The notes below the pieces were generated by a model. That model did not search any database and was not told the DNA's origin. It saw only the letters and a list, made by a program, of their open reading frames with translations. From Macrostomum lignano (Eukaryota): 25,956 nucleotides of DNA. The DNA lies in contig NIVC01005112.1 in assembly GCA_002269645.1 (NCBI GenBank), positions 1-25,956 on the forward strand. The letters run 5' to 3'. Both the position numbers and the translations under genes were made by a program. Position 1 is the first letter of the stretch, and each line of letters begins with the position of its first letter. This document shows, piece by piece, positions 11,467 to 25,956 of the stretch.

Positions 11467-11567
11467 GCATTCCATTCAGACCAAAACACGAGACCAATTT
11501 TTATCTTTTTATTTTTCGAAATTTTCTTCTCGCGTTTTGGTCTCGCGTTTTGGTCTGAATGGAATGC
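11467..11567. repeat. 31-bp near-perfect inverted repeat with a 39-nt AT-rich spacer
   Basis: GCATTCCATTCAGACCAAAACACGAGACCAA (11467-11497) versus TTGGTCTCGCGTTTTGGTCTGAATGGAATGC (11537-11567), one mismatch. Confidence 0.9.
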
Positions 11568-11575
11568 ATGACTCA

Positions 11576-12055
11576 GTGTAGCAAGAGTATAAGATAAAAA
11601 ATATAAAACCCCGAATTCCTGTGTTAGTCATCGAGTGAAGTTTGCCTACTTGCTTTGCTATCTTGGTCGGACAATAGCCGACCATATTGTTGCGGTGCGA
11701 GCTTGCTTCTGTGTAGCAAGAGTAGATGAAAAATATAAAACCCCGAATTCCTGTGTTAGTCATCGAGTGAAGTTTGCCTACTTGCTTTACTATCTTGGTC
11801 GGACAATAGCCGACCATATTGTTGCGGTGCGAGCTTGCTTCTGTGTAGCAAGAGTATAAGATAAAAAATATACAACCCCGAATTCCTGCGTTACTCATTG
11901 AGTAAAGTTTGCCTACTTGCTTTGCTACGGTGGTTGGACAATAGCCGACCATATTATTGCTCTGCGAGATTGCTTCTGTGTGTAGCAAAAGTAGATGAAA
12001 AATATACAACCCCGAATTCCTGCGTTAGTCACTGAGTGAAGTTTGCCTACTTGCC
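11576..12055. repeat. ~135-bp tandem repeat array, ~3.6 copies
   Basis: GTGTAGCAA recurs at 11576, 11711, 11843 and 11980; each unit contains CCCCGAATTCCTG. Confidence 0.92.
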
Positions 12056-12150
12056 AGCTTCCTAAGATAGTAATTTTTTGTTTATTGACCCCGTTGGGAG
12101 TTTTTGTACTTATGTTGTGTTTTTAATGGTGACTATGGTATTATGTCTAA

Positions 12151-13524
12151 TTATGTGACAATTATGTCTAAAATCGGATAAAGTTGAAAGCCTGAAACAA
12201 TAAGAACAGTTGATCCTTCAGTGGCTGAATTAATATGCACTCTATAACCGGAGAATTTTTCGGTGGAAGCTACTTCAAAATATTTCATCACTCCAGGAAC
12301 TAAACCAGCATTTTCGGTAGAAAAAATATTCCTAAAGTCTCTCTTGTTATTGCTCCTTTCAGAATAAAACTTTTTGGTTGATTTTTTATAATTTCACTAC
12401 CTACTGCTTTGGTTCCTTTCAATCCGAATTTCCAAATTTGAATAGATTCAGGAAGTTGTACTTCAATGTAAGAATTGGGTTCATTCCTCGATGCCCATTC
12501 TGAATTAGATACTATATAACCCCAATTATCTGACGTTTCAAATGCTCCTGATGACGCTACATTGAAACCCCTTTCTCTATAGTTTTGACGTGTTGCTAGT
12601 GAGGGAATATATCCTGTATAAGATTTGAAACCTAGTCCCCGCCTTAGTCGCAGCTCCACTGATTCAAGTGCATTGTCTACGTATAGCTTTGGTACAGCTT
12701 GAAGTCTATCTATAGGCCACACTAAATCATTAACCACTGTTTGTCTCTCAAGTAATTCAACTTTTGTAAGCTTTACGGAACCAGAAAAATTAAGAGAATA
12801 ATGGAAATAATATGAGGGTTGGGTATTTTTTTCCTAAGATGTGCATTGCCCCTTCGTAGTTCAATGGGTGCACTTTGTTCAACAGGTGTCCAGTTTGTTC
12901 CATTTAGGCTCACACTAACAGACCAACCAGGCCACACCTCTCCTTCCAACTTTATCTCTACAACTTTCCTAGCTCTTTTCAAAATTGAAATCGTATCCAC
13001 TTGTCTGAGTCATCTGCACTGCTCCATTCTGAAGCTGGGTTTGAATCTGCAACATGATATGCTGCTGAAGAGTTATGAGAAGCGGTCACTTTCATGTCAG
13101 GATGGAAGCGTTTGAAGTCAGTAATGAAAGAATATTGACTAATTTCGAACTCTCTGTACCCCCGCAGTACCTTGCCTTTCTGCTAACAAAGTGTCAATCT
13201 CAGTTTTAGAATACATCTTAGTGTCAATTTCGGTTTTAGAATACATCTTAGTGTCAGTTTCGGTTTTTGTGTAGACATTGTTTACGCGCCCATGAGCATC
13301 GTCAATTAATTGTAGCATGGTGATATTCATTGCGTCACTATCTTCCTTTGAATAAGAGTCTGAAACATTTCTCTTTGCTAACAATAAATTATCTATTTCC
13401 TCTCTCTTATATCCTTCATTTTCATTGATGTATCGATCATCAGCTAACGCTATTGTTATTCCAGGTGCTATATCATTTGAATTTGACGAGTAACCAAATT
13501 GATTGCAGTATTCTTGTAACTCAT
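12151..13524 (-). pseudogene. Putative spike/fiber: N-terminal anchor, YSKTEIDTKM repeats and two F5/8 type C (discoidin/CBM32-like) domains; at least 4 frameshifts
   Basis: Stitched frames give NQFG...DDRYINENE; 30-bp repeats at ~13191-13272; VTASHNSSAAYHVAD...EWSS...WIRFQF...SVSLNGTNWT; EWASRNEPNSYIEVQLP...KFSGYRVHIN...VSGFQLY. Confidence 0.65.
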
Positions 13525-13952
13525 TTTAATTGCTGCAAAATTTCATTATAGCTATCTCCTTTATCGATTCGATGTAAAAAGTACAGCGACATTTGACCAC
13601 AAAATTTCTTATCTAAAGTTTGAATTTGTTCTTCCATGTCTCCACATATTCTATTCTTTGTGTGATTAAACTTTTCCATAATTTCCAGTGTGGGCGGTAG
13701 TGCATAGGAATCAAAAAAATAAACCTTATCATGAGCTGAAAAGATAGCTGAATGATGTATACCCCGTTCTTTCGAAGTGTGAATATTTGTCATAAAGTAA
13801 CCATACTGTGGTAAATCAACAATTTCATCTCTCATGGCATAGCGAAATGGTTTTAACTTGAGATATTTTGCCCAATTTATCAGATCAATATTAGTCGTAG
13901 TGTCAGTCCCAAACTTTTGTTTAAATGCATTCCATGTCTCAGCTTCGCTCAT
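13521..13952 (-). CDS. Adenain-like cysteine maturation protease
   Basis: GIHHSA (catalytic His), YFFDSY (Asp), QIQ...FCGQ (oxyanion Gln and catalytic Cys); TAAAAATG start at 13952. Confidence 0.88.
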   Translation of the reverse strand: MSEAETWNAFKQKFGTDTTTNIDLINWAKYLKLKPFRYAMRDEIVDLPQYGYFMTNIHTSKERGIHHSAIFSAHDKVYFFDSYALPPTLEIMEKFNHTKNRICGDMEEQIQTLDKKFCGQMSLYFLHRIDKGDSYNEILQQLK

Positions 13953-13961
13953 TTTTAACAC

Positions 13962-14753
13962 TCATATTTGTCGTACGTGTAGATTTATAAATATTTCCTC
14001 GCCATCAAAGTCGTATAGAACACCAGACTCATCTTCGATGACAAAGTCGAATGTGCTCAACATGTTTGTAGTTAGTGGTAGGTACACAGGATTTGCAGGC
14101 TCTTGAATAATTTTACTTCCCATTGGGACAGAGAACGATGGAATTGAAAGAAGTATTTGCTTATCAATTAAATGATTTCCATTGGCTGGATCAGTGATAA
14201 AACCCCCTTTGATATTGAGACAACGAACCATGATCGCACTTCTAGCTCCGTCTATCCGAGCTGGATTTGGAGCTCTCTCAAATGGTTTCAAATACACTTC
14301 CGAATTGAATCCCAACAGTCTTCTAAAGTTATTGGAATGTGCATCCCTGAAATCAACTTGATACTCTGTGGCTAACCGTAACTCAACCCTACGCGTGTCT
14401 AGGCTTGCACTGAAAACAATAGCCCCCTCTTTCCAATCATTTGCAGCTGTTAGCAATCTTTGAATCTCGCTTGACAGACTTTTAACTTCCCAAGATCCTG
14501 CTTGAATCTTTATTTTCTTCCATGTTCTACCACTATCCCTCGAGTATCGCAACTCATTATTGCCTCCTTCAATATTGTTAATAGCATCAAAGACTGCAAA
14601 CTTTTTTATACCAGCTTCGTATTCTCGATCTTCATACAAATTTATCGGAGTGCCTAGAGTTTGTCGAAATGGGTTTTTAATTGAAAAGAAGTCAAATGTG
14701 CGTTGAAACTTTTTACTCAAGAGGATGTTGACTTTTTCTATTTCTTTTTCCAT
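13962..14753 (-). CDS. Minor capsid (penton-like single jelly-roll) protein
   Basis: Polinton penton pattern NNIEGGNNELRY...IKIQAGSWE...LLGF...VRCLNIKG...EPANPVYLPL...IEDESG...DFDGE...LHVRQ. Confidence 0.85.
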   Translation of the reverse strand: MEKEIEKVNILLSKKFQRTFDFFSIKNPFRQTLGTPINLYEDREYEAGIKKFAVFDAINNIEGGNNELRYSRDSGRTWKKIKIQAGSWEVKSLSSEIQRLLTAANDWKEGAIVFSASLDTRRVELRLATEYQVDFRDAHSNNFRRLLGFNSEVYLKPFERAPNPARIDGARSAIMVRCLNIKGGFITDPANGNHLIDKQILLSIPSFSVPMGSKIIQEPANPVYLPLTTNMLSTFDFVIEDESGVLYDFDGEEIFINLHVRQI

Positions 14754-14755
14754 TT

Positions 14756-15487
14756 TTAAGCAAGTAATTCTACTAGCTCTTTATCAACATTGTTATGTCC
14801 CTCTGCTTTTGCGGCTAGTAATGTCAACACTCTTTCACTGAGTCCAGATCCCGGTTTTACTCGATATCCTGGTGGATTATCTTTCAATATCCTTACTGCT
14901 TGCTTATAATTCCCACTTGATTTGGCCGCTGGATTTTTACAGTGTTCAATGAGGTTAACATAATCCTGCAATGTTTGCATCTTGAATTGCTTCAGCTCTT
15001 CACCATTTTCAGTTACTTTAGGCATTTTGAACAACTCTTCAAGATCTTCAGAAAATGGCATTCGGAATTCGTTGACAATGATGTCCCGACCTTGTTCATG
15101 GAATTCAACCTCTATTACAGATGATCCAAATATATATCCAGCATCAGTTTTTTGAATCCGTATACTAGGCGCTGGTCTTTGAGTTATTGGAATCTTTCCA
15201 ATTTCTTCAATTATTTTGTCAAATACTTCCAGAGGTTCAAATCGTCCTTTTGGTGTACTTAATTGCGGAACTGGAACTTTTTGATTCTGAAGTTTATCAA
15301 CAAGGTTGGCATTGAAATCAATAAATTCATCAAGCTTTTCTGTGACAGGTTTTTGAGCTAATGGAGCCACTCTTGCATATAAACTCTCTTCTCCAATTTT
15401 CAAATAGCGTTGAGCATCATTTCTGGATTTGTACGTTTCTCGCTGCTTTGCTAAATTAATGAGTTCTCTTATATATTCATTAGTCAT
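14756..15487 (-). CDS. Conserved Polinton core protein
   Basis: C-terminal GSGLSERVLTLLAAKAEGHNN motif, paralleled by GKGIAEIYKRVAVLLGAAKTG in 23842-25056. Confidence 0.6.
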   Translation of the reverse strand: MTNEYIRELINLAKQRETYKSRNDAQRYLKIGEESLYARVAPLAQKPVTEKLDEFIDFNANLVDKLQNQKVPVPQLSTPKGRFEPLEVFDKIIEEIGKIPITQRPAPSIRIQKTDAGYIFGSSVIEVEFHEQGRDIIVNEFRMPFSEDLEELFKMPKVTENGEELKQFKMQTLQDYVNLIEHCKNPAAKSSGNYKQAVRILKDNPPGYRVKPGSGLSERVLTLLAAKAEGHNNVDKELVELLA

Positions 15488-15489
15488 TT

Positions 15490-16262
15490 TTACAATGGGA
15501 TTTTAGTTAGAACATCCTTATACAAATCTTGCTCATCCTCATCAGCTCTTGTATTTATATAGATATAGCCATACTTCTTTTTCCAAGCCTCTCTACATTT
15601 AGCCTTGAATATAGCGGGTTCATAATTCGTTTCTATATTTCTAGCAATGTGATTTAAGTTTGTATCTTTTTGTTTAAAGATTATGTAACATGTCGTATTC
15701 TCCCTGACAGTATTGCGATCTAGTTTGGTAAAATTTTGAGCTAGATAAAAACCACAACAGTTTCCATGCCTGCCTCTCTGAAACAGACTTTCCTGAAATT
15801 TTGATTAGCCTCTCCCAAAACATCGTCCAATATCACACATGTCTTTAGTCCATTATGAAAAATTTCTTCATTTGGAGTATGGGAAAGAGTGACAGGAATT
15901 TTCTCTATTACTTCTGAATTTTCTGATGTGCTTTGCACTCGACCAGGGTTGGCTGCCTCTCGACAAATATGTCTAATATCTTCAGGAGATGCATCCTCAC
16001 TCACCTGGTAGACATGATAGAGTGAGTTGATAAGAGAAGGTGGGAGACCATTTTCAAAGCCATATTTTAGAAACTGATACTCTGGATCCATTTGAGATGC
16101 TCTGGGAACATATAAAACTAACTCATTAAAGTCAACTAGTTTTTCAGGACTTGTAAGAATATGGAATAGTAAATATGTTTTACCCGTATTTGTAGCGCCG
16201 ATAATACAACATAAAAGAGGATTAGGGAAAATAGGATCATGCTGAAATTTTACTTTGGGCAT
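15490..16262 (-). pseudogene. FtsK/A32-like genome-packaging ATPase, one frameshift (~15780)
   Basis: Walker A GATNTGKT; Walker B VILDD; alternative frame continues RGRHGNCCGFYLAQNF...NTVREN...to TAA at 15490. Confidence 0.9.
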
Positions 16263-16283
16263 TTAAAAAAAGAAAAAATGACC

Positions 16284-17648
16284 TTATTCGACGCGGGTCA
16301 TTTGATATTCACTGGTAACTTTTATTACATTCTTTGTTTGTTCAAGAATTAGTGCAAAAGCAGTCAGCTCAACATTTGTTGACTTCTTGATAAATAATTG
16401 AATATTCACTCCACTCTTGACCAGAAACTCATCTTGAGCTGTTAGATCAAAGCAAAAGATTGGATAGATGGTTAGAAAGTCTTGTTTATTGAATGGAGGA
16501 GTTACACCGAAACGGCTGCAGATGTCTTCGTACATTTCATACGCTCTGTGAATGTCTTGAGCTACTGGATCAATTTCAACATAATCATTCGGATACATCA
16601 CCTGATTTAATCTGACTTGAAGCTGGGTTATTTTCACTGCATTTGCTCCAGTTTTGTAAGACACATACTTGTGATCATTAACTATATATGATGGGTTGTT
16701 TACGTCATATTTGAAAGCTACAAAGATTGCAAGTGGCATATTGGAGATGTTGGCTATGTTCCATGTATATGGACTTCCTTGAATGAGTTGTGGTGGAACC
16801 GTTACCCTCTCTGGAAATGATACTGTAATGTCCTTGTTGAGTGATTTTAGAAAAGCTGCTTCAGCACTGGGTGACAAAGTAATAGCAGGGATCCAAATCT
16901 CAAAGCTATTAATAGTTAACTTAGCTTCCGTCCCGGCAGCTCCAAAGAAAATTTCAGCATCGTTAGTCTTTCTTGTCCATGTGAATTTATATTTAATTCC
17001 TTTGCTAATCTTCTGCCAATCAAGGAACCCAATGAGAGGTGTTAATGATAGTTTGATTGTTCCACCTCTGTTTGGAGCATTAGTGACATTGTTATAATTT
17101 TCAAGCCTCCTAATGTATCCAGTATTCGAATCCTTCTTATTGAGTCTATTTTTCATAGCGATTGCTGCAGTTCTCACAGCTTCAGCATCTGCGTTGTTTG
17201 CTAGAGGTATATCAGAAACAGTCCCAGCATCTCCAGTGTCTGGAATCCATCCGTATGCTTCTCCAACTTCATTCATTAATTTTGAGTACATTACGGACTT
17301 TAAGATTGTGTCATACTCTCCAGGATCATTATAGACTTTCTTTGTTCCTCCAATGTCAACTATGAGTTGAGAGAAAAGTCTCATAGGCCAATTATGTTCT
17401 AGAGTAATGTTCGTATTCAAGTCGGTGTTATCTCGTTGTGTTATTGAGTATTTTATACAACCGAATGCCTCTGACATGAGAATGTATGACTCTGTTGAAT
17501 TGACTTCATGAACTATTTGACCTCCTGCAACATTGAGATTATTAGTGCTACCTGGAGTTGGAGAAATCTTAATATAGTCTTCTTTCTTTTTGAAAAAGCT
17601 AAAAGTTTTGTCCTCATATATGCTCAGTATATCCTTTTTGTTCTCCAT
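16284..17648 (-). CDS. Major capsid protein (double jelly-roll, hexon-like), intact 454 aa
   Basis: Size and position beside the ATPase and penton; motifs RLFSQLIV, PLIGFLD, LQVRLNQVMYP, YPIFCFDLT. Confidence 0.88.
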   Translation of the reverse strand: MENKKDILSIYEDKTFSFFKKKEDYIKISPTPGSTNNLNVAGGQIVHEVNSTESYILMSEAFGCIKYSITQRDNTDLNTNITLEHNWPMRLFSQLIVDIGGTKKVYNDPGEYDTILKSVMYSKLMNEVGEAYGWIPDTGDAGTVSDIPLANNADAEAVRTAAIAMKNRLNKKDSNTGYIRRLENYNNVTNAPNRGGTIKLSLTPLIGFLDWQKISKGIKYKFTWTRKTNDAEIFFGAAGTEAKLTINSFEIWIPAITLSPSAEAAFLKSLNKDITVSFPERVTVPPQLIQGSPYTWNIANISNMPLAIFVAFKYDVNNPSYIVNDHKYVSYKTGANAVKITQLQVRLNQVMYPNDYVEIDPVAQDIHRAYEMYEDICSRFGVTPPFNKQDFLTIYPIFCFDLTAQDEFLVKSGVNIQLFIKKSTNVELTAFALILEQTKNVIKVTSEYQMTRVE

Positions 17649-17668
17649 TTTTATAAGAGAAATTTCAA

Positions 17669-18121
17669 CTAAGCTTCATGAGGTCTAAGAATTATCCCAT
17701 TACCCTGTTTCTCCTTTTCAACTTTAAAAGTCTTTAGCAGCCACTTGACTGCTTCGCTGGGTACTTGTTCGACTCTTTTAGCCGCATCAACTAATACTCC
17801 ACTCCCTTGAGCCTTTTTCAACTCTTCTAGTTTTTGCCGTTCAATGCTTTCTATTGTCTTATTATGTTTAGCATTGTTGGCTGTATTAACACTTTTTGCA
17901 ATCATTGTACCAACTCCTGAGGCTGCTCCGATACCACCCAAAATTGCTGGTAGTAAGCCTAATAGAGGAATTATTCCACCTTCATGTTCTTTCTGTTTCT
18001 CTTGCAATTCTCGAATCTTCTCTTTAGAAAGATATTGCTTTTGCTTATTTACAGTAACATATCTTGGTTTTCCCTCTCGAACATATCGATTGAGTCTTGC
18101 TTCAGTGTTTTTCTCGCTCAT
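17669..18121 (-). CDS. Virion core protein with Gly-rich hydrophobic segment (protein X/VI-like)
   Basis: EGGIIPLLGLLPAILGGIGAASG, resembling the GGFLP-type motif; QGSG and QGNG candidate cleavage sites. Confidence 0.6.
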   Translation of the reverse strand: MSEKNTEARLNRYVREGKPRYVTVNKQKQYLSKEKIRELQEKQKEHEGGIIPLLGLLPAILGGIGAASGVGTMIAKSVNTANNAKHNKTIESIERQKLEELKKAQGSGVLVDAAKRVEQVPSEAVKWLLKTFKVEKEKQGNGIILRPHEA

Positions 18122-18129
18122 TTTTAAGG

Positions 18130-18552
18130 TCAGAATTTCTTCAAACCATTGCCTTGTCTCAAAGACACTTGAGACTGTTCTGCTGTTCCTAGAGCCTTTT
18201 TAACAATATCTTGAATAGCCTTATTTGATTGAGAAGCTATCTGTTGCTCTTCTTCCATTCTTTTCTTTGCTTCTTTATCTCTACGTTTCTTTTTAATATA
18301 TTCCAGTTCCTCACCTGCTTTAGACATGTCACTGTATGATTTCTTCGCATCGAATATGTTCTTCGCTGTGGTAGCTGTTTTACCTATTGCATCAGCTCCA
18401 CTCACAATTTTACTTCCATGATTTGATAAAAAGTTTGTGACACCACTGATCATATCACCAATTCCTTCACCCTCTTTATCAGCTAGTAGTTGTGAATCAG
18501 ACGTTTCAATCTGACCTTTCGCCCGTTTGCAGTTTGTTCGATAGGCGCTCAT
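18130..18552 (-). CDS. Virion core protein with amphipathic helix (protein VI-like)
   Basis: TAAAAATG start at 18552; GEG-IGDMISGVTNFLSNHG; terminal GNGL; similar to 23448-23825. Confidence 0.55.
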   Translation of the reverse strand: MSAYRTNCKRAKGQIETSDSQLLADKEGEGIGDMISGVTNFLSNHGSKIVSGADAIGKTATTAKNIFDAKKSYSDMSKAGEELEYIKKKRRDKEAKKRMEEEQQIASQSNKAIQDIVKKALGTAEQSQVSLRQGNGLKKF

Positions 18553-19412
18553 TTTTAGTTGAAAAATTTGCTGGTAGAAGCTGGGATTTGTAAAATGATC
18601 CAATGATTTCTTCTCCATTCTCATCCTCAATAATGTAGGTTATGGGATTGGAGTAAACTATTTTCTTTATCCTAAACACTTCTGAAATTTTCCAATATCC
18701 TCTTCGACCCTTTTCAAAGTGCTCCTTATATCTATAGATATGAACTTTGTCACCTACTTTGAAGTTTGGTTTCTCATTTGAATACTCGAAAGTTGGCTTT
18801 GGTACTCGCTCAGGATGTTTAGATGCTTCTGAAGGAGTTATCAGAATCTCAGAATGGATTGTGTTGTTGTATTTTTCAACAATAGCTGGCAATGTGTGGA
18901 GCCACTTCTGATTACCCTGTAGATCAAATTCAAACCAGAGTTTATTTGTGAGAGTACGATTGAACCTCTCAATCATTGCATTCTTGGACTCGCCATAAAT
19001 TGAAAACATCTTGTTATATATTCACCCTTTCATCCTTCTTTCTAATGTTGTCTTTTGAAAACGAGTATAGCTTGTACATATGCTGATTATAAAACTCCTT
19101 GCCTTCATCTACACAAAGTCTCTCTGATCGTCTTCCTGATTCCTTAAATACTTTTTGGAAAGCTTCTGCAACTTCCGCTCCCGTCTTTGTTTTCAAAGGA
19201 ACTGCCCAGGCGTAACGTGTAAAACCATCTATGATAGTGAGAGCATATTTGTAACCTCTTTCGGGCTGCATAATGATATCTGCATGCCAAATTGTGTCTT
19301 TTGCATAGTGAATCATTTTTCTAAATACTCTTGGCTTTCGATATTCTTTATGCAATTTTACTGCATCTTCATAGCTAAGACCCTTACCATAAATTGTTAG
19401 ACAGTCATACAA
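18506..19412 (-). pseudogene. int: Retroviral-type DDE integrase, frameshift at ~19010
   Basis: WHADII (D); IIDGFTRYAWAVPLKTK; VDEGKEFYN (D); IERFNRTL (E); YNNTIHS; FKVGDKV; C-terminal GSFY. Confidence 0.95.
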
Positions 19413-19745
19413 TTGTTGGGGTTGTGAGTATGAATGCCTAATCCAAACCGAACTTTAGCCTTGATAATACGCTTTACTAGATTTCGAATGAGTCTCTCTT
19501 TCACAGACAAGTCACTGGTTGGAATAGCATCTAAATCAGCTATCATTTTTTCATCAGCTATATGCTTCTTTGCTAGAGCTTCCTCTGGATTTGAAGAAGT
19601 GTTTTCAGCATCTCTATAGTTTTTGTCATGATAGTAAGCAGTCCAATCGATTGGGTTAATTGGTAGACTGTCATACCGAGGCCGGTCTGTAATTGGATTG
19701 AGTCTCTTGTCTAAATTTGTACCCGGCAGTTGTTCCTCAATCTTT
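19400..19745 (-). pseudogene. Parvovirus-type phospholipase A2 (PLA2X) domain, not in the ORF track
   Basis: My translation: LPGTNLDKRL...PINPIDWTAYYHDKNYRD...KHIADEKMIADL...KAKVRFGLG; catalytic HD at 19625-19630. Confidence 0.8.
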
Positions 19746-19841
19746 CGAAAGAGGCTGGACTTTATCTTAAGGCTTCATCAGGATTGACCAGATCCTTCAG
19801 CCCCACCCCCATTAAGTCTCTGAACCTTCTCCATATCCTTG

Positions 19842-20527
19842 TCAACTTCGTTCGGACTTAGGAGCTTGGCTGCGGATTTCCACCATGTCCTCAAGCTTGT
19901 TACCATCGAACCATAGGTTCGCGGACGAAGTCCGATTGGGAACAGGAATTACCTGTGTTCCTTCAGAAGATTTCTCAACTGAAGTGGTACTTGAGGCTGT
20001 TATTGACGTACTAGAATCGGACGGAGTTCCCGCAATTTGAAGGTGTCGCCAATCACTAAGCACTTGTTTAATGTTGGTTATAATGTTTTTGTATTGATCA
20101 CCATAAAGAAATTTCAATGCAAATTCTCCTGTTATAAGGGTGATTCCATTGTCTAGTAAAATATTCTTAGGTTCCTTTGTAGTTTTATTGATGCATACAT
20201 AATACAACTGATAGGTGGGATAAGAATTTTTATAGTCTAATAGTTTCTGATAATTCCTTTCACGACTTGATGAATGTCCGTGTTATCAGAAGATTTAAGC
20301 TCTAATGCAATCTTTCGCTCAACGTGAACCAGGTCAATCTTTTTTACCTTCTCGAATCCAAAATAATTTTCTGCTAATATTTCATATAGTCTGCCTAGTC
20401 TCATTTGAATAACTTTAATCTTGTGTGAAATTATTAACTCTTCTTGGAAAAGATCATGAAGAATTTGATCATGCCCAACCTTATCATCAATTGGTTTCAG
20501 AAGAATTTCTCGAATTGTTTGCTCCAT
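19842..20527 (-). pseudogene. PD-(D/E)xK restriction-endonuclease-like protein (Eco47II-like), one 1-nt deletion at ~20275
   Basis: MRLGRLYEILA...KIDL...ALELKSSDNTD; adding one A gives NSSSRERNYQKL and joins ORFs 20237-20527 and 19842-20207. Confidence 0.7.
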
Positions 20528-20685
20528 TTTTACTATAGAAACTTTAACAAGTGCTTATTTGATGACTAGCAAGGACATTGACTTCCTCACTCAGGCCACT
20601 ACGTAACCTGCAAAAGAATACCCTGGAATATGAAGTTCTCCTGGGTATTTTCCAGTGGCGAAGATGGGTGGTAGTTTTGTTATAG

Positions 20686-21261
20686 CTGACTGAATATCTA
20701 AAGCATTTCCTAGAAATAATGGTTTACTGAAGGCCATTTTATATATATAAAATTTACTATCGTTGAATTGGATGACACTTTCATATTGTATATACCTGAA
20801 ATTGCATTAAATTGACCCGAGGATCCAACCTTTCTCATGGTTTTAGAGCTGGAATCGTGAAAATTGCACTTTTTAAAAAAAATAGAAAATCACAAAAAAT
20901 CGCTGTTTTCAGACCATTTTCACCTGTTTTTAGTCATTTTTCAGTTATTTTTAGTGATTTTCAAAATGAGTGAGGGCATGAGGGCGAGGGCACCCCCCTT
21001 TTTAAAAGTATAAAAAATCCGGAAATTCTGTCTTCTGAGAAATATACCACAGGCCAATGCCCCCCACATGCCCTCACCCTCAACACCCTCAGTCACAGAT
21101 ATATGTATATTTATATATTTTTATATTTATCACACACACACTTGAATCCATGACCACCTGGTAGTAGTAGTATGTTATAAGGGGCTGAGTCATCCAGCGA
21201 GCTGGCGCGTAATGCGCCCGAGCGATAAGTGTGGCGCAGCCCCTTATAACATACTACTACT
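20686..21261 (-). repeat. Right terminal inverted repeat (576 bp), including the fold-back cassette 21163-21261
   Basis: Reverse complement of 3043-3616. Confidence 0.95.
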
Positions 21262-21527
21262 GATCCAGATAGAACAGACACAGATCCTAGAATCATATTG
21301 CTGTAGTCGAAAAATTTACAGTGGCTTTCATAGCGTTTAATTTTCTTTGTGTTGTGGAAAATATTTTTTTCAAGATCATCTCGCATTTTTTGAATCTCTA
21401 CCAGTCGAAACTGTTGAGAGTTACAAGTAATGACGGGGTAGAGTTTTTGTTGCTCATATTGGGGTGCACTAGGTGCACTAGGTGTTGTGGGAGCATTCGG
21501 ATCATAAAGAGAATTTTGAGCATCCAT
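21262..21527 (-). pseudogene. GasderminX-like protein truncated by the element-1 right end
   Basis: LYPVI...FRLVEIQKMRDDLEK...KKIKRY...DYSNMILGSVSVLSG aligns with the 3688 ORF; the reading frame runs into the TIR at LSGS|VVVCYKG. Confidence 0.75.
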
Positions 21528-21638
21528 TTTTTTAAAGAAATTTTTAAAAAAATAATCGGCAACTAGTTGGTGGTGGTTAGATTTGTTTTACGGTTGATTG
21601 CTTCGTCTGCAGTGACGGCAACAGGTCTCTGAATCTGC

Positions 21639-22382
21639 CTATTCATTATCTGTGAGCTCCATTCTACGCATGATCTCAAACAAGTCGGTTGGATCACTTG
21701 TTTCCCTTGTGGTCTGTGGTGCCTCTTCAGCGTCAATGTTTTTGAGATTATGCAAGCGTTCAAGACGACCGATTCTTCTCACCGATTTCTGCCATTCGGT
21801 AAAAACTAAATCTACAAAGACTTTAATTGCAGTAATTCTTACTTTGATTTGATCATGCAACGCTGTTGACTGAGTCATGAACTCTTCTAAATTCCTCACT
21901 TTACATGTGTTGGTTGCGACGTTTTCTTTAATTCTATCATGCAATGCTGTTGACTGGTTCATGAACTCTTCTAAATTCCTCACTTTAACTGTGTTTGTGA
22001 AAACTCCTTCTTCAAGAATGCGCATCCGCCTATCAATGGAGTTTCTCAGAAGATTAATTGTCGATGCTAAATTTGTTCTTAAACCGTTGATTTGCGAGAC
22101 TGCCGAAGTTATTTCTGACCTAAGTTCATTAGTTGCGTTTAACAACGGCACATAAAGCTTATCACTTTCAAACTTCTGCCTAGCTACTTTAAGCCTGAGA
22201 TCTTCCATGTTTATTTGCAACTGGTGCATGGAGCGCTCCAGGGCTTTCAGTCTGTTTTTATTCAGTTTGATCTCTGGGATCTTTTCGTCGCTGTTGATAT
22301 ATCGCCTGTCAAGTATGGATATTTGAGCTGATGTAAGAGCGCTGTTGCCAGAAATGGATTCACCTGCAAAGTTTATTGACAT
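21639..22382 (-). CDS. Coiled-coil protein with spike-like N-terminal anchor and an 84-bp internal duplication
   Basis: MSINFAGES...LDRRYINSDE resembles NQFGYSS...DDRYINENE of the element-1 spike; two 28-aa repeats containing KVRNLEEFMxQSTALHD. Confidence 0.6.
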   Translation of the reverse strand: MSINFAGESISGNSALTSAQISILDRRYINSDEKIPEIKLNKNRLKALERSMHQLQINMEDLRLKVARQKFESDKLYVPLLNATNELRSEITSAVSQINGLRTNLASTINLLRNSIDRRMRILEEGVFTNTVKVRNLEEFMNQSTALHDRIKENVATNTCKVRNLEEFMTQSTALHDQIKVRITAIKVFVDLVFTEWQKSVRRIGRLERLHNLKNIDAEEAPQTTRETSDPTDLFEIMRRMELTDNE

Positions 22383-22398
22383 CTTTTAATAGCAAATT

Positions 22399-23199
22399 TT
22401 AAATTACAGTTCTTTTTTCTTTGCTGATAATCACAAACTGGTAAGGCTGATTCCACTTGTCATAGCAAAGATTAACGAATTCCTCTTGTGAAATCTTTCT
22501 GCTTGAGTTTTTTGTTGGATTTATGAAATAGGCAGGCGCAATGACCTCATTGTAAAATCTTTTTAACCTGTCCTGTGGAATGGTTGGAAACAGGAGAATC
22601 AGATTGCAGTTCCCACGAATTGTTTTGTTCGGGAGCTCGAACCAGTTCTGTGCAATGTAAATTACATTACAATTGTTATGTCGTCCTCTTGTAAAATAGT
22701 TTTCTATCTGCTTCTGTGGGCCTGTCATACAATCATCAAAGACGATCAAATGCTTTCTCCCCTTTTCTAGCTCATCTGGTTGGGGTAGAAGTTTGGTCTT
22801 TGGATCAGCCTGTGGATCTCCATAGGTGAACACTTTAATGTTCTGCCATTTTTCATTGTCTTTGAGGTGCTTTGCATATTCGGCAGCTACAATTTCAGGG
22901 TTACTGGGAAGGCTCATTTGGTTATTAAAACATGCAATAATGTCCTCTTTGTTCAGCTTGTTTTGAAGCCCTGCAATCAGCATTCTATACTCATCTTGAT
23001 ACAGTGTGGGAGAGTAGATGTGCAGAGTGTCATAGTCGATAAAGCCAGGTCTAAGAAGCATGTTAAAGACTCTGAATGTTTTACCTGAACCTGATGAACC
23101 AACAACAATGCATCTGAAGTGACTCGGGATTGACTCATGATGAGAAAACTTAATCTGATTACGTGTCCAGTGAGGATTGAAGTCGTTTGAAAAGTCCAT
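22399..23199 (-). CDS. FtsK/A32-like packaging ATPase (element 2), intact
   Basis: GSSGSGKT; LIVFDD; FTRGRHNNCNVIYIAQ; IRGN. Confidence 0.92.
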   Translation of the reverse strand: MDFSNDFNPHWTRNQIKFSHHESIPSHFRCIVVGSSGSGKTFRVFNMLLRPGFIDYDTLHIYSPTLYQDEYRMLIAGLQNKLNKEDIIACFNNQMSLPSNPEIVAAEYAKHLKDNEKWQNIKVFTYGDPQADPKTKLLPQPDELEKGRKHLIVFDDCMTGPQKQIENYFTRGRHNNCNVIYIAQNWFELPNKTIRGNCNLILLFPTIPQDRLKRFYNEVIAPAYFINPTKNSSRKISQEEFVNLCYDKWNQPYQFVIISKEKRTVI

Positions 23200-23239
23200 T
23201 TTTTCTATGATGAAAAAAATTTAAATAATAAATAATGTA

Positions 23240-23407
23240 GATGTGTCATTTCGGGACTTAGATGTGTCATTTTGGGACTTAGATGTGTCATTTTGGGACT
23301 TGGATGTGTTATTTTGGGACTTAGATGTGTCATTTTGGGACTTAGATGTGTCATTTTGGGACTTAAATGTGTCATTTTGGTACTTAATTGTGTCATTTTG
23401 GGACTAG
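23240..23407. repeat. 21-bp tandem repeat, 8 copies, intergenic
   Basis: Unit GATGTGTCATTTTGGGACTTA at 23240, 23261, 23282, 23303, 23324, 23345, 23366 and 23387. Confidence 0.95.
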
Positions 23408-23447
23408 TCTTGTACCTTTACATTTCTTGTACCCTCGGAAAGTACCT

Positions 23448-23825
23448 TTAGTCAAATTTGAAACCACTTCCTTTTTTAATGCTAGCTCTCATCTTCTCAT
23501 AGACTGCAGGGTCCACACTGTCTGGATTTGGGGCCAGCGGGGCCAGCGGTTGAATCTCTTGTTTAGGTGTTACAGTATCCTTTATCTTTTTGGCTGCTGT
23601 GGCTACACTGCCAGCCGCTTCGGCAACGTTCTTGATGTTCTCTTTGTTCTCTCCAATGACCTTAAAAATCTTAGCCCCCTGAGCGATCAAATCAGCAAGG
23701 CCATTCCCAGAGCGTTCTTTTCTTGGATAGTGGCCTGCAGGGAAAAGTCCAGATCCGCGTTTAATGAGATTAAGTTCCTCTTTGTCATAGTATTTGTCAA
23801 TGTCTTTTTCGAAAATAATTGGCAT
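23448..23825 (-). CDS. Protein VI-like core protein (element 2)
   Basis: TAAAAAGATG start at 23825; GSGL, GNG-LADLIAQGAKIF amphipathic helix, terminal GSGF. Confidence 0.55.
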   Translation of the reverse strand: MPIIFEKDIDKYYDKEELNLIKRGSGLFPAGHYPRKERSGNGLADLIAQGAKIFKVIGENKENIKNVAEAAGSVATAAKKIKDTVTPKQEIQPLAPLAPNPDSVDPAVYEKMRASIKKGSGFKFD

Positions 23826-23841
23826 CTTTTTAAATAGAAAT

Positions 23842-25056
23842 TTATTTTTTGTTAAACCGTGAAAGCAGAAGCTCTCTCGCCCTCTTATCGATGTATTTTC
23901 TCTCAAGCATTTTATTGAGGATGTGAACGAACTCTTTTCTATTCTCATCTTTCATTCCGGTCTTTGCTGCTCCTAGAAGAACCGCTACTCGCTTGTAGAT
24001 TTCAGCTATTCCTTTTCCAGTTGAAGGCGGTTGGTCTTGAGGTTGTGGAGTTGGTTGGGCTTGTGGCTGCTGGGGAGGTGATGCAAAAGACTGCTCACTT
24101 TCAGAGATGGAACTGTCATGTGGTGCCTGTCTCTGTTGAGGTGTGAAAACTCTTTGCTTGATTCTGTTCATTCGATCTGGGGAGTGTTGTTCTAAGTGTT
24201 GCCAGTCTGTTGGGTTTTGTTTCTTATATTCAGCTACTTTCAAAGGGTCTAACTGCTCGAGATGACTGAGTACTTGTTCTTCTGTGGAATGTTGCTGCTG
24301 TTGTGGCGGTCGTTGTTGTTGTTGTGGTTGCTGTTGCTGTTGTTCTAGATATTTCATCTGATCAATGACTTCCCCCTGATCTGGCAAACCAAACCATTGT
24401 TTAAAGTGCTTGTACTTTTTGAAATTAGTCAGGTTGACACCGCCATCGTACATGTGTTTCAGAACTTCTGGGACCTTTAGTATTTCTATATCTCTAGCAA
24501 GAGAAAAAATCACTAGATCTCTGTAGTTCTTTAGCTGTTTGTCCGAGATTCTCTCTTGGTTCTTGGTCATAAAATTCAGTAAGGTTTCTGTGAAAGGAAT
24601 GCTCTTAGTTTCCGAGCCTTTGACAACAGAAATATGTTTCTTATTTATGTCGATATAATATTCCACTGGTTCATTATAAATGTTTCTTCTCCACATACTT
24701 ATTCCAAATACATATTTCCCATCATGTTCTACACGCTCTACTGGTCCAAAAATGTTATCTGTCACTTTTAGTTGCTGTTGTGGTTGTGATTGTTGTGGTT
24801 GCGGCTGTATCTGTGGTGCTTCTGGAATTTTGCCCAAAACCTTTTGCACTTGGGTTTCCTGTATGTCGTCGATAGTTTCTTTGACCTGATCAATATTTTT
24901 CTTAGCTTCTCCATACCCGGGTTTATGAAACTCTGTGGCTGCTTGGACAAACTCATTGTAGGATTGTTGCTCCTTATTTATTAGCTTGGTAACTCTCTTT
25001 TCTGCCTGCGCCAGCTTTTCTAGTTCAGATATCTGCTGTGTACTTTTTCGCTTCAT
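23842..25056 (-). CDS. Gln/Pro-rich core protein (element 2)
   Basis: 404-aa intact ORF; C-terminal motif shared with 14756-15487. Confidence 0.6.
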   Translation of the reverse strand: MKRKSTQQISELEKLAQAEKRVTKLINKEQQSYNEFVQAATEFHKPGYGEAKKNIDQVKETIDDIQETQVQKVLGKIPEAPQIQPQPQQSQPQQQLKVTDNIFGPVERVEHDGKYVFGISMWRRNIYNEPVEYYIDINKKHISVVKGSETKSIPFTETLLNFMTKNQERISDKQLKNYRDLVIFSLARDIEILKVPEVLKHMYDGGVNLTNFKKYKHFKQWFGLPDQGEVIDQMKYLEQQQQQPQQQQRPPQQQQHSTEEQVLSHLEQLDPLKVAEYKKQNPTDWQHLEQHSPDRMNRIKQRVFTPQQRQAPHDSSISESEQSFASPPQQPQAQPTPQPQDQPPSTGKGIAEIYKRVAVLLGAAKTGMKDENRKEFVHILNKMLERKYIDKRARELLLSRFNKK

Positions 25057-25087
25057 TTCTTATTTTATTTTATTTTTAGTTAAAAAA

Positions 25088-25956
25088 ATGAACGACCCAC
25101 TGACACCAGTTTTCTACAAGATTAACAAGCCTATTTTGAGTGATGATAGCACAATCAAAGCGACTCAGGTAAGAGTTCCCAGTCAGGAAAATCAGAATGA
25201 AACTAATCTTGGTCCTGGTCAAACACTGACATTTACATACAATGGATGTTCGTCTTTGGTTAGTGTGCACAGTCTTAAGAGCGGCTTCCATATGACATTT
25301 CAATTCAAGACAAAGGGTGGTGCGGATGCGGCTCGTGCTAACGTTGACAAGCATGATGCGGATGTGGCTCTGATCAGTAACTTTTGGGCGTACATGTTCA
25401 AGGAGTTTAGTGTATCGAATGGGAGCACTGAGTTGGAGCGAATCGCCAACTTTGGAATTGTCTATGACGCTCATTGTTTGATCGAGAATCCTGATTTTAT
25501 TCAATTGGGAAGTGGTGCGGGTTTTATTGCAGACGAAAAAGAAGGAGATATCAATGACAGTGGCTATAAAAAGGAAGAAGAGATACAACTATGCATTGCA
25601 AGGTGCTGATGATGCTGCTAAGAACCCGCTGTATCGGTCTGTTGATGTATTTGTACCATTGAGATTCATGAGTGGATTCTGTAATACATTTAATCGACTG
25701 ACTAGTAACTTTAGCTACACCTTTAAGATGACTAGAGATGATCGCAGTAGAGTGTTGTGGACTGGGCGGACCACACAAGGATGGAGGTGAAGCTAACCGG
25801 AATCGAGCTGTATTTGGAAGTCATTGAGCCAAGACTGCACTGCACTAAAAGCTGATTATCTTAAGGCAATAGAGAAGGACATTGATGTTGCATACACGGC
25901 CTACATGTGTCGAGATGAGCGAAACGAAACTAGAACAAACATCTGCATTAAAGAGG
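25088..25956 (+). pseudogene. Major capsid protein of element 2, 5' part, frameshifted (~25590, ~25770, ~25850)
   Basis: TAAAAAAATG start; NL...GQTLTF...ALISNFWAYMFKEF...IANFG...GFIAD pattern parallels element-1 MCP; continues VPLRFMSGF...FKMTR...KLTGIELYLEVIEP. Confidence 0.7.

What the first reader, a model, noticed from the sequence alone, without database searches (positions are those of the whole stretch)
19400..19745. Protein-level consequence: no Gly-Pro dipeptides, and the PLA2 calcium loop (GPG) appears deleted
Gly-Pro is encoded GGN-CCN, which always contains GGNCC. Seen: no GP in any element-1 ORF I read, whereas element-2 proteins have it (MTGPQ, FGPVE, LGPGQ). The PLA2X here reads EEQLPG-TNLDKRL. 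Known: parvoviral-type PLA2 has a YxGPG Ca-binding loop, typically LPGYxYCGPGT in Polintons. Inference: ~7 residues between the two PG repeats were lost, possibly because the nuclease forbids GP, leaving a Ca-independent or repurposed PLA2 that keeps its HD dyad.
Basis: partly seen in the sequence, partly recalled or inferred. Interest (0 to 1): 0.75.

Follow-up and report, generated by a model that had tools for sequence, protein, structure and literature searches.

The report
Intron-borne restriction enzyme in Polinton phospholipase
The phospholipase calcium loop of this virus-like Polinton element is not deleted but interrupted by a self-splicing intron that carries a gene resembling a five-base-cutting restriction enzyme; the intron sits exactly in the likely cut site, and the rest of the element has no such site.

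Summary
The Gly-Pro absence is real: 0 in 4,978 aa of element-1 ORFs against 8.9 expected. GGNCC is absent from the 18.2-kb element against 14 expected. The loop deletion is wrong. The missing PLA2X N-terminus, ending YSFAG, lies upstream at 20737-20606 and matches residues 1-44 of homolog P0001 at 80%; the downstream part resumes at residue 45, PGT. Between them is an 879-nt group I intron, 20605-19727 (Rfam 88.9 bits, E 5e-23), with U·G 5' site, P7 G-site, P9.0 and terminal G. 'EEQL' is translated intron RNA. The intron splits a GGT|CC site and encodes an Eco47II-like nuclease (frameshifted in this copy) whose nearest solved folds include EcoO109I and AvaII. A giant-virus-like relative pairs the nuclease with a C5 methylase and is GGNCC-depleted; element 1 shows no such methylase. 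Best reading: a mobile intron with a short-site, restriction-type homing nuclease, where genome-wide site loss replaces methylation and splicing supplies the one needed Gly-Pro. Splicing, cleavage and homing are inferred, not shown.

The parts
3043..21261 (.). Element 1: Polinton/Maverick of 18.2 kb (pPolB pieces, D5-like primase-helicase, RING, fibre-like pieces, protease-like, penton-like, ATPase, double-jelly-roll capsid, rve integrase, PLA2X) with about 580-bp terminal inverted repeats; no GGNCC site
   Evidence: Inverted repeats; Pfam DJR, rve, D5_N, PriCT_2 and Endonuclease_7 hits; pPolB, protease, penton and fibre labels are my reading of motifs and gene order, without a significant Pfam hit; GGNCC counts
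20606..20737 (-). PLA2X exon 1, 44 codons, ending ...ELHIPGYSFAG (first half of the calcium loop); starts inside the right TIR
   Evidence: 80% identical to P0001 residues 1-44, E 2e-26; alignment
19727..20605 (-). Group I self-splicing intron, 879 nt, IC1-like, inserted between the Gly and Pro codons (GGT|CCG), i.e. inside a GGTCC site
   Evidence: Rfam RF00028 at 19736-20119, 88.9 bits against gathering score 50, E 4.9e-23; only gathering-level hit in the window; helices
20592..20610 (-). P1 helix, 8 of 8 pairs, with the last exon U (20606) in a U·G wobble = 5' splice site
20048..20570 (-). P2.1 long-range stem (20570-20546 with 20068-20048; 9 of 9 and 12 of 12 pairs) whose loop holds most of the nuclease ORF
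   Evidence: Duplex -30.6 kcal/mol; 0 of 500 shuffles reach it
19727..20045 (-). Ribozyme core: P3 7/7, P4 6/6, P5abc-like extension with A-rich bulge, P7 5/5 plus G-C and bulged A (guanosine site), P8 6/6, P9, P9.0 2/2, terminal G at 19727 = 3' splice site
19842..20527 (-). Intron-encoded Eco47II-like PD-(D/E)xK nuclease (IDL...ELK, TDxSSSR motifs), in two pieces (20527-20237 and 20282-19842) broken by a frameshift near 20275; the C-terminal tail runs into the ribozyme core
   Evidence: Homologs 45-65% identical; P0004 Pfam RE_Eco47II E 1.1e-5, 25.6 bits, just under cut-off 25.9; Atlas 0.96 for P0137; folds
19397..19726 (-). PLA2X exon 2, starting PGTNL (second half of the calcium loop), with the HD dyad at 19630-19625
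   Evidence: 70% identical to P0001 from residue 45; Pfam Phospholip_A2_4 E 1.2e-4
18506..19409 (-). rve integrase pieces directly downstream; probably the C-terminal part of a PLA2X-integrase fusion, broken near 19400 and 19010 in this copy
   Evidence: P0002 spans both domains in one ORF (78%, 82%); 9 of 26 long PLA2 homologs also carry rve

Best explanation
A mobile group I intron has invaded the calcium-loop Gly-Pro codons of the Polinton PLA2X(-integrase) gene. SHOWN by sequence: two exons that abut exactly, a complete IC1-like ribozyme, insertion inside a GGTCC site, a nuclease ORF in the P2.1 loop, and no GGNCC anywhere in the element. INFERRED: (1) The pre-mRNA self-splices (exogenous G attacks after the U·G pair; ligation after the terminal G), so the mRNA encodes a normal PLA2X with GPG loop and HD dyad, the only Gly-Pro of the element. 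(2) The nuclease is a type II restriction-enzyme derivative that cuts GGNCC as a short site. (3) It cuts intron-less alleles at the insertion site, giving homing by recombination, and cuts any co-resident DNA bearing GGNCC (rival Polintons, helper or giant virus, host). (4) With no methylase, the carrier survives by having lost every other GGNCC, while the ribozyme masks the one site that protein function needs. In this copy the nuclease and several other genes are frameshifted, by decay or read error.
For: Exon contiguity at P0001 44|45. Rfam hit. Helices and splice signals; of 8 candidate terminal Gs, only 19727 gives both zero extra codons and the P9.0 partner CU. G|P at the junction position in 86 of 118 homologs. 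Family: Pfam Eco47II; Atlas feature hits to Eco47II 0.96 and EcoO109I family 0.94. Fold: VIA top hit EcoO109I, Z 9.6, rmsd 5.0, 173 aligned, next Z 6.7; Foldseek EcoO109I rank 2 and AvaII rank 4. Their sites, GGNCC, RGGNCCY and GGWCC, are recalled. Specificity support: locus L001 has a relative next to a C5 methylase (E 3.5e-66), with GGNCC the most depleted of 256 patterns, O/E 0.33. Giant-virus GGNCC R-M is reported in PMC10960955 (passages). Element 1: 0 GGNCC; the L001 methylase has no tblastn hit at E<=1. Recurrence: 9 of 18 nuclease homologs have tails matching the translated ribozyme core at E<=0.01, against 0 of 118 PLA2 controls and 0 of 180 shuffles.
Against: No splicing or cleavage data. 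The nuclease is broken in this copy. Pfam score is just below the curated cut-off; structural similarity to EcoO109I is moderate (13% identity, rmsd 5 Å), and Foldseek's top row was DdmD. The L001 relative is distant (33% identity, branch length 3.5). No convincing P10 was found, and my hand-placed P6 coordinates did not pair; P6 rests on the Rfam alignment and local fold. No DNA of intron-bearing relatives was available, so their insertion sites, GGNCC depletion and covariation are unchecked. The nuclease tree is unresolved, so origin and order of events are not shown. How the nuclease ORF is translated is unclear: it lies behind a 48-codon upstream frame. The methylase test covers only the C5 class by homology plus motif scans.
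Confidence: 0.72

Rival explanations
1. One reading: about 7 residues of the Ca loop were deleted between two PG repeats, leaving a Ca-independent PLA2.
For: The local frame does read EEQLPGTNL, and GP is absent.
Against: The missing residues are present as exon 1; EEQL lies in the intron's P9 region; 0 of 118 homologs match the deletion pattern.
Confidence: 0.01
2. The intron is a shield first. GGNCC loss was driven by an outside cutter (giant or helper virus R-M system, or a rival element); the intron spread because it masks the one unavoidable site. The nuclease was captured later and may have a longer, ordinary homing site centred on GGNCC.
For: GGNCC R-M systems occur in giant viruses (L001; PMC10960955 passages). 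9 of 118 PLA2 homologs replace the loop Pro, consistent with wider pressure on this site. Collaborative homing is a described route (PMC11296320 passages).
Against: Depletion is complete, including non-GP frames, and confined to the element carrying the nuclease, while neighbouring element 2 keeps 8 sites in 4.7 kb. The nuclease is a compact REase core with no extra DNA-binding domain: the model is ordered over 1-166 and the tail is disordered ribozyme-derived sequence.
Confidence: 0.17
3. The nuclease cuts GGNCC but has been domesticated as a weapon (host chromatin degradation or defence against a giant virus), and homing is incidental or no longer happens.
For: A 5-bp cutter would cut any unprotected genome about once per kb. 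Purging every site costs more than homing alone would repay. Interference by intron endonucleases is proposed for BsV (PMC5871332 passages).
Against: Exact insertion in the recognition site and persistence inside an intron in many homologs are hallmarks of homing. This model is not exclusive of the best explanation.
Confidence: 0.1

Closest known systems
Mobile group I introns with PD-(D/E)xK homing endonucleases (I-Ssp6803I; EDxHD I-Bth0305I)
   Same: Self-splicing intron with an in-loop nuclease of restriction-enzyme fold, inserted at the presumed target.
   Different: I-Ssp6803I reads a 23-bp site, and homing endonucleases generally read 14 to over 30 bp (PMC3384342, PMC3943268 passages). 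Here the enzyme belongs to a 5-bp type II family, and the whole carrier genome lacks the site.
Eco47II-family type II R-M systems (Pfam PF09553), including giant-virus GGNCC systems (Budvirus; locus L001)
   Same: Nuclease family and fold; GGNCC depletion in the carrier.
   Different: Those are paired with a C5 methylase, and L001 keeps 33 sites. Here no methylase was found, there are zero sites, and the gene sits inside an intron.
Group I introns in protist polinton-like viruses (PMC12220804)
   Same: RF00028 introns inside small integrating dsDNA viruses.
   Different: Those described in R. lacustris are 309-376 bp, in a ~50-aa unannotated gene, with no endonuclease annotated (passages; 0 hits for Eco47II or PF09553 in 2 supplement files). 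This one is 879 nt, in PLA2X, with an REase-type ORF.
Intron homing endonucleases of Bodo saltans virus (PMC5871332)
   Same: Introns mask endonuclease targets in essential viral genes; interference competition is proposed.
   Different: HNH and GIY-YIG enzymes in RNA polymerase genes of a 1.39-Mb virus; no short-site genome purge in the passages read.
Adintovirus/Polinton PLA2X (PMC8502044; Pfam PF08398)
   Same: Parvovirus-type PLA2 domain with GPG loop and HD dyad.
   Different: Here split by an intron and probably fused to the integrase; 'intron' had 0 hits in that paper's supplement file, which was cut when stored.

Membership tests
Group I intron | Covariance-model match above the curated threshold | tested here: met
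   88.9 bits against 50, model 1-253
Group I intron | 5' exon ends in U, paired U·G in P1 | tested here: met
   P1 8/8, U20606
Group I intron | P3/P7 pseudoknot with guanosine-binding site; P4, P8 | tested here: met
   P3 7/7, P4 6/6, P7 5/5 plus G-C and bulged A, P8 6/6
Group I intron | Terminal omega-G, with P9.0 | tested here: met
   G19727; AG/CU 2/2
Group I intron | P10 pairing of the 3' exon with the guide sequence | tested here: inconclusive
   The best duplex overlaps the P1 guide rather than a canonical P10
Group I intron | Self-splicing activity | not testable with these tools
   Needs RNA data or an in-vitro assay
Subgroup IC1 | P2/P2.1 and P5abc with A-rich bulge | tested here: inconclusive
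   Both features are seen in single-sequence folds; subgroup criteria are recalled and no subgroup model was run
Eco47II-family restriction endonuclease | Profile match PF09553 | tested here: inconclusive
   P0004 E 1.1e-5, 25.6 bits against cut-off 25.9; precomputed label on 6 of 18 homologs; Atlas 0.96; the window's own pieces give no hit
Eco47II-family restriction endonuclease | PD-(D/E)xK type IIP fold | tested here: met
   EcoO109I Z 9.6, rmsd 5.0, 173 aligned, for homolog P0131; D and ExK conserved in the window piece
Eco47II-family restriction endonuclease | Cleaves GGNCC | not testable with these tools
   Indirect only: depletion in element 1 and L001 and the insertion site
Type II R-M system | Cognate methyltransferase nearby | tested here: not met
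   No tblastn hit of the L001 C5 methylase in the window; no methylase among 30 Pfam-scanned ORFs; no convincing motif
Classical homing endonuclease | Encoded in an intron inserted at its own target | tested here: inconclusive
   Intron-encoded: met. Target equals insertion site only if the specificity is GGNCC, which is inferred
Classical homing endonuclease | Long (14-40 bp) recognition site | not testable with these tools
   Family, fold and genome-wide depletion point to a 5-bp site, so it is not filed as a classical member
Parvovirus-type PLA2 (PLA2X) | Calcium loop (Y/F)xGPG | tested here: met
   Split across exons FAG|PG, colinear with P0001
Parvovirus-type PLA2 (PLA2X) | HDxxY and downstream Asp | tested here: met
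   YYHDKNY and ADEK in exon 2; H77, D78, Y81 in 49 of 49 and D100 in 47 of 49 hand-picked homologs
Parvovirus-type PLA2 (PLA2X) | sPLA2 fold | tested here: inconclusive
   P0001 model pLDDT 86.9; only weak sPLA2 rows, E>=2.7
Polinton/Maverick | TIRs, pPolB, rve integrase, ATPase, protease, DJR capsid | tested here: met
   pPolB and protease by motif reading only
Polinton/Maverick | 6-bp target-site duplication | tested here: not met
   Flanks differ; the right TIR truncates an element-2 gene, suggesting later rearrangement

The most novel reading that the evidence does not exclude
A recurrent family of eukaryotic-virus group I introns has recruited a frequent-cutting type II restriction enzyme as its homing nuclease. 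The Polinton carrier replaces methyl protection with total genome-wide loss of GGNCC, and so of Gly-Pro in its DNA-encoded frames, and uses RNA splicing to create the single indispensable Gly-Pro of its entry phospholipase. This is a methylase-free restriction system whose immunity is site loss plus a ribozyme, able to shred competing elements, giant viruses or host DNA.
Probability: 0.55. Interest if true: 0.92.

Novelty: new variant of a known kind. Interest (0 to 1): 0.85.

Why it matters
Homing endonucleases are thought to need long sites to avoid killing their carrier, and restriction enzymes to need a methylase. This locus appears to break both rules by a third route: purge the site everywhere and hide the one essential copy behind a ribozyme. 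It offers a testable intermediate between R-M systems and homing endonucleases, a mechanism for interference among Polintons and giant viruses, and a case where a selfish gene removes a dipeptide from a viral proteome's DNA coding. It also warns that apparent loop-less PLA2X annotations can be intron artefacts. If the host proves to be an animal, a group I intron residing in its nuclear DNA would be unusual (recalled; one phrase search returned no paper).

Tried and rejected
Spliceosomal intron: the nearest AG before exon 2 does not give the homolog-colinear junction, and the Rfam match is decisive. Alternative 3' splice site at 19736 (the Rfam end): in frame but adds 3 codons and lacks the P9.0 partner. 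Loop deletion and assembly deletion: rejected. Protein-level selection against GP alone: rejected, since non-GP frames are also purged. Phage collection: no match for nuclease P0131 or the intron core. PDB sequence search with the nuclease profile: 0 hits. GTDB scan: 1 relative among 76 pattern hits, with no intron in it. Nuclease tree: unresolved; intron-tail labels not clustered beyond shuffles (422 of 500), so no origin or direction is claimed. GP is absent from all 18 nuclease homologs, but they are too short and Pro-poor for that to count. PLA2 fold search was inconclusive. mis-located some short helix arms; corrected coordinates are. Literature, 9 answered searches: PLA2X; group I intron + polinton; Eco47II + intron (20 of 52 listed); group I intron + restriction endonuclease + giant virus + homing; maverick + self-splicing + intron + phospholipase A2 (54); GGNCC + giant virus; group I introns + animal nuclear genomes; I-Ssp6803I set; group I intron + virophage + endonuclease; and a tenth, GGNCC + homing endonuclease. 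No listing described this arrangement; subscription journals are largely not covered and bioRxiv supplements could not be seen.

Full report
Context. The finding lies in an 18.2-kb Polinton (element 1, 3043-21261) bounded by about 580-bp inverted repeats. Pfam finds a double-jelly-roll capsid, rve integrase, D5 and PriCT domains and a PLA2 domain among 30 scanned ORFs. Many genes are in pieces. A second Polinton-like element follows to the right. The host was not identified.

Observation. GP is absent from 31 ORF pieces totalling 4,978 aa; shuffles give 8.9 on average and 0 of 3,000 give zero. Element 2 has 3 GP, as expected. GGNCC is absent from element 1 against 14.35 expected (P 6e-7) and ranks first of 256 XXNXX patterns for depletion, whereas it is not depleted in either flank (ranks 235 and 250). 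Holding proteins fixed and resampling synonymous codons still predicts 7.0 sites, with 1 of 1,000 runs at zero. The constraint is therefore on DNA, and the GP gap is its unavoidable protein-level shadow.

The loop is interrupted, not deleted. The closest homolog, P0001 (70%), has an intact loop. Its residues 1-44 match a separate upstream frame at 20737-20606 (80%), and its residue 45 onward matches from 19726, with no gap or overlap. Most of the 116 representative hits begin aligning at or after query position 17, the Pro, because the 16 preceding residues are not PLA2. At the junction position, 86 of 118 homologs have G|P, 9 have G followed by another residue, 5 have another residue before P, 10 are truncated and 8 are misaligned or other; 0 of 118 match the proposed deletion.

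The insertion is a group I intron. Rfam RF00028 scores 88.9 bits (gathering score 50; E 4.9e-23) at 19736-20119 minus. Exon 1 ends in a U held in a U·G pair within an 8/8 P1. P2 is 5/5. A 9+12-bp stem encloses the nuclease ORF (0 of 500 shuffles reach it). P3 is 7/7, P4 6/6, P7 5/5 plus the G-C pair and bulged A, P8 6/6, and P9.0 2/2 precedes the terminal G at 19727. Of 8 candidate terminal Gs, only 19727 has the P9.0 partner and restores colinearity. A P5abc-like extension with an A-rich bulge suggests subgroup IC1 (criteria recalled). P10 is not evident, and my manual P6 placement failed. The intron is 879 nt (20605-19727) and splits GGT|CC, itself a GGNCC site.

The intron's ORF. The 20527-19842 frame, broken near 20275, has 18 homologs at 45-65% identity. 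P0004 matches Pfam RE_Eco47II at E 1.1e-5, just below cut-off; 6 of 18 carry that label. Atlas features and structures point to Eco47II and EcoO109I families, including a Nucleocytoviricota-rich cluster. A model of P0131 is ordered over 1-166 and disordered in the tail. Its best VIA match is EcoO109I (Z 9.6, rmsd 5.0, 173 aligned; next 6.7). Foldseek ranks DdmD first, EcoO109I second and AvaII fourth. The recalled sites of these enzymes (GGNCC, RGGNCCY, GGWCC) share the GGNCC core. The single GTDB relative (1 of 76 pattern hits; 33% identity) lies in a giant-virus-like contig beside a C5 methylase, and GGNCC is again the most depleted pattern, 33 sites at O/E 0.33. That methylase finds nothing in the window. 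Tails of 9 of 18 homologs at E<=0.01 (10 at E<=0.05) match the translated ribozyme core, against 0 of 118 and 0 of 180 controls. They enter it in two different frames, as expected for RNA-level conservation. So the intron-nuclease unit recurs in independent sequences. Four homologs have no tail, three end early, and one has a tail visible only by eye. The tree does not resolve their order.

Mechanism. Shown: the anatomy above. Inferred: the pre-mRNA self-splices to give a conventional Ca-dependent PLA2X, probably fused to the integrase (P0002; 9 of 26 long homologs). The nuclease cuts GGNCC. An intron-less allele carries the site at the insertion point and is cut and converted. Other co-resident DNA is also cut. 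The carrier, lacking a methylase, survives by having no sites, and the ribozyme hides the one site that the conserved loop requires. How the ORF is translated (reinitiation, excised intron or internal start) is unknown. This copy may be inactive; decay and read error cannot be separated. About 1.75 new sites would be expected from TIR-level divergence, so zero is compatible with modest decay. Confidence: intron interruption about 0.97, GGNCC specificity about 0.85, whole mechanism 0.72.

Comparison. It works like a mobile group I intron with a homing endonuclease. It is a group I intron by all testable core features except P10. It is not filed as an R-M system (no methylase) or as a classical homing endonuclease (long site not expected). 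Papers were seen as keyword passages only: PMC8502044 (supplement search, file cut when stored), PMC12220804 (supplement search), PMC11296320, PMC10748475, PMC3671162, PMC10960955, PMC3384342, PMC3943268, PMC10675990 and PMC5871332. They establish group I introns in protist polinton-like viruses without an annotated nuclease, intron endonucleases in giant viruses with proposed interference, GGNCC R-M in a giant virus, and 14 to over 30-bp sites for homing endonucleases. Searches listed no description of an Eco47II-type intron nuclease or of genome-wide site loss in a Polinton; coverage is limited to open-access text.

Verdict. New variant of a known kind, interest 0.85. The main gaps are biochemical proof and the DNA context of relatives.

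Noticed in passing
window 19409-18506 (-) and exon 2: PLA2X is probably fused to the rve integrase (P0002 continuous; 9 of 26 long homologs carry both domains), so intron splicing may also gate integrase expression.
   Followed up: partly
PLA2 homologs P0008, P0013, P0037, P0049, P0078, P0080, P0101, P0103, P0116: 9 of 118 homologs keep the loop Gly but replace the Pro, which would remove the GGNCC; possible escape alleles, untested.
   Followed up: no
window 21262-21527 (-): An element-2 gene, a distant paralog of element-1 ORF 3667-4305 (E 1.5e-5), is cut off by element 1's right TIR. No target-site duplication, and the left flank is microsatellite-rich host-like DNA: nested insertion followed by rearrangement.
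   Followed up: partly
window 21262-25956: A second Polinton-like element (A32-type ATPase 22399-23199, ATPases 30% identical) keeps 8 GGNCC sites, a potential victim of the element-1 nuclease.
   Followed up: partly
window 3043-3625 vs 20677-21261: The TIRs differ by 16 substitutions and 4 gaps in 586 columns, mostly A<->T and G<->C swaps; the terminal 100 nt form an internal hairpin with a flipped centre.
   Followed up: no
window 20737 and 3566: The PLA2X start lies inside the TIR, so the left TIR carries a truncated copy of exon 1's first ~17 codons.
   Followed up: no
L001 8205-9504: A giant-virus-like contig (PCNA, XRN, GFAT) in a bacterial MAG encodes a distant nuclease relative, apparently frameshifted, next to a C5 methylase; GGNCC O/E 0.33.
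   Followed up: yes
window 9969-10259 and 11168-11389 (-): Two unexplained small ORFs, plus 132-135-nt tandem repeats at 11566-12054; an immunity or regulatory role is not excluded.
   Followed up: no
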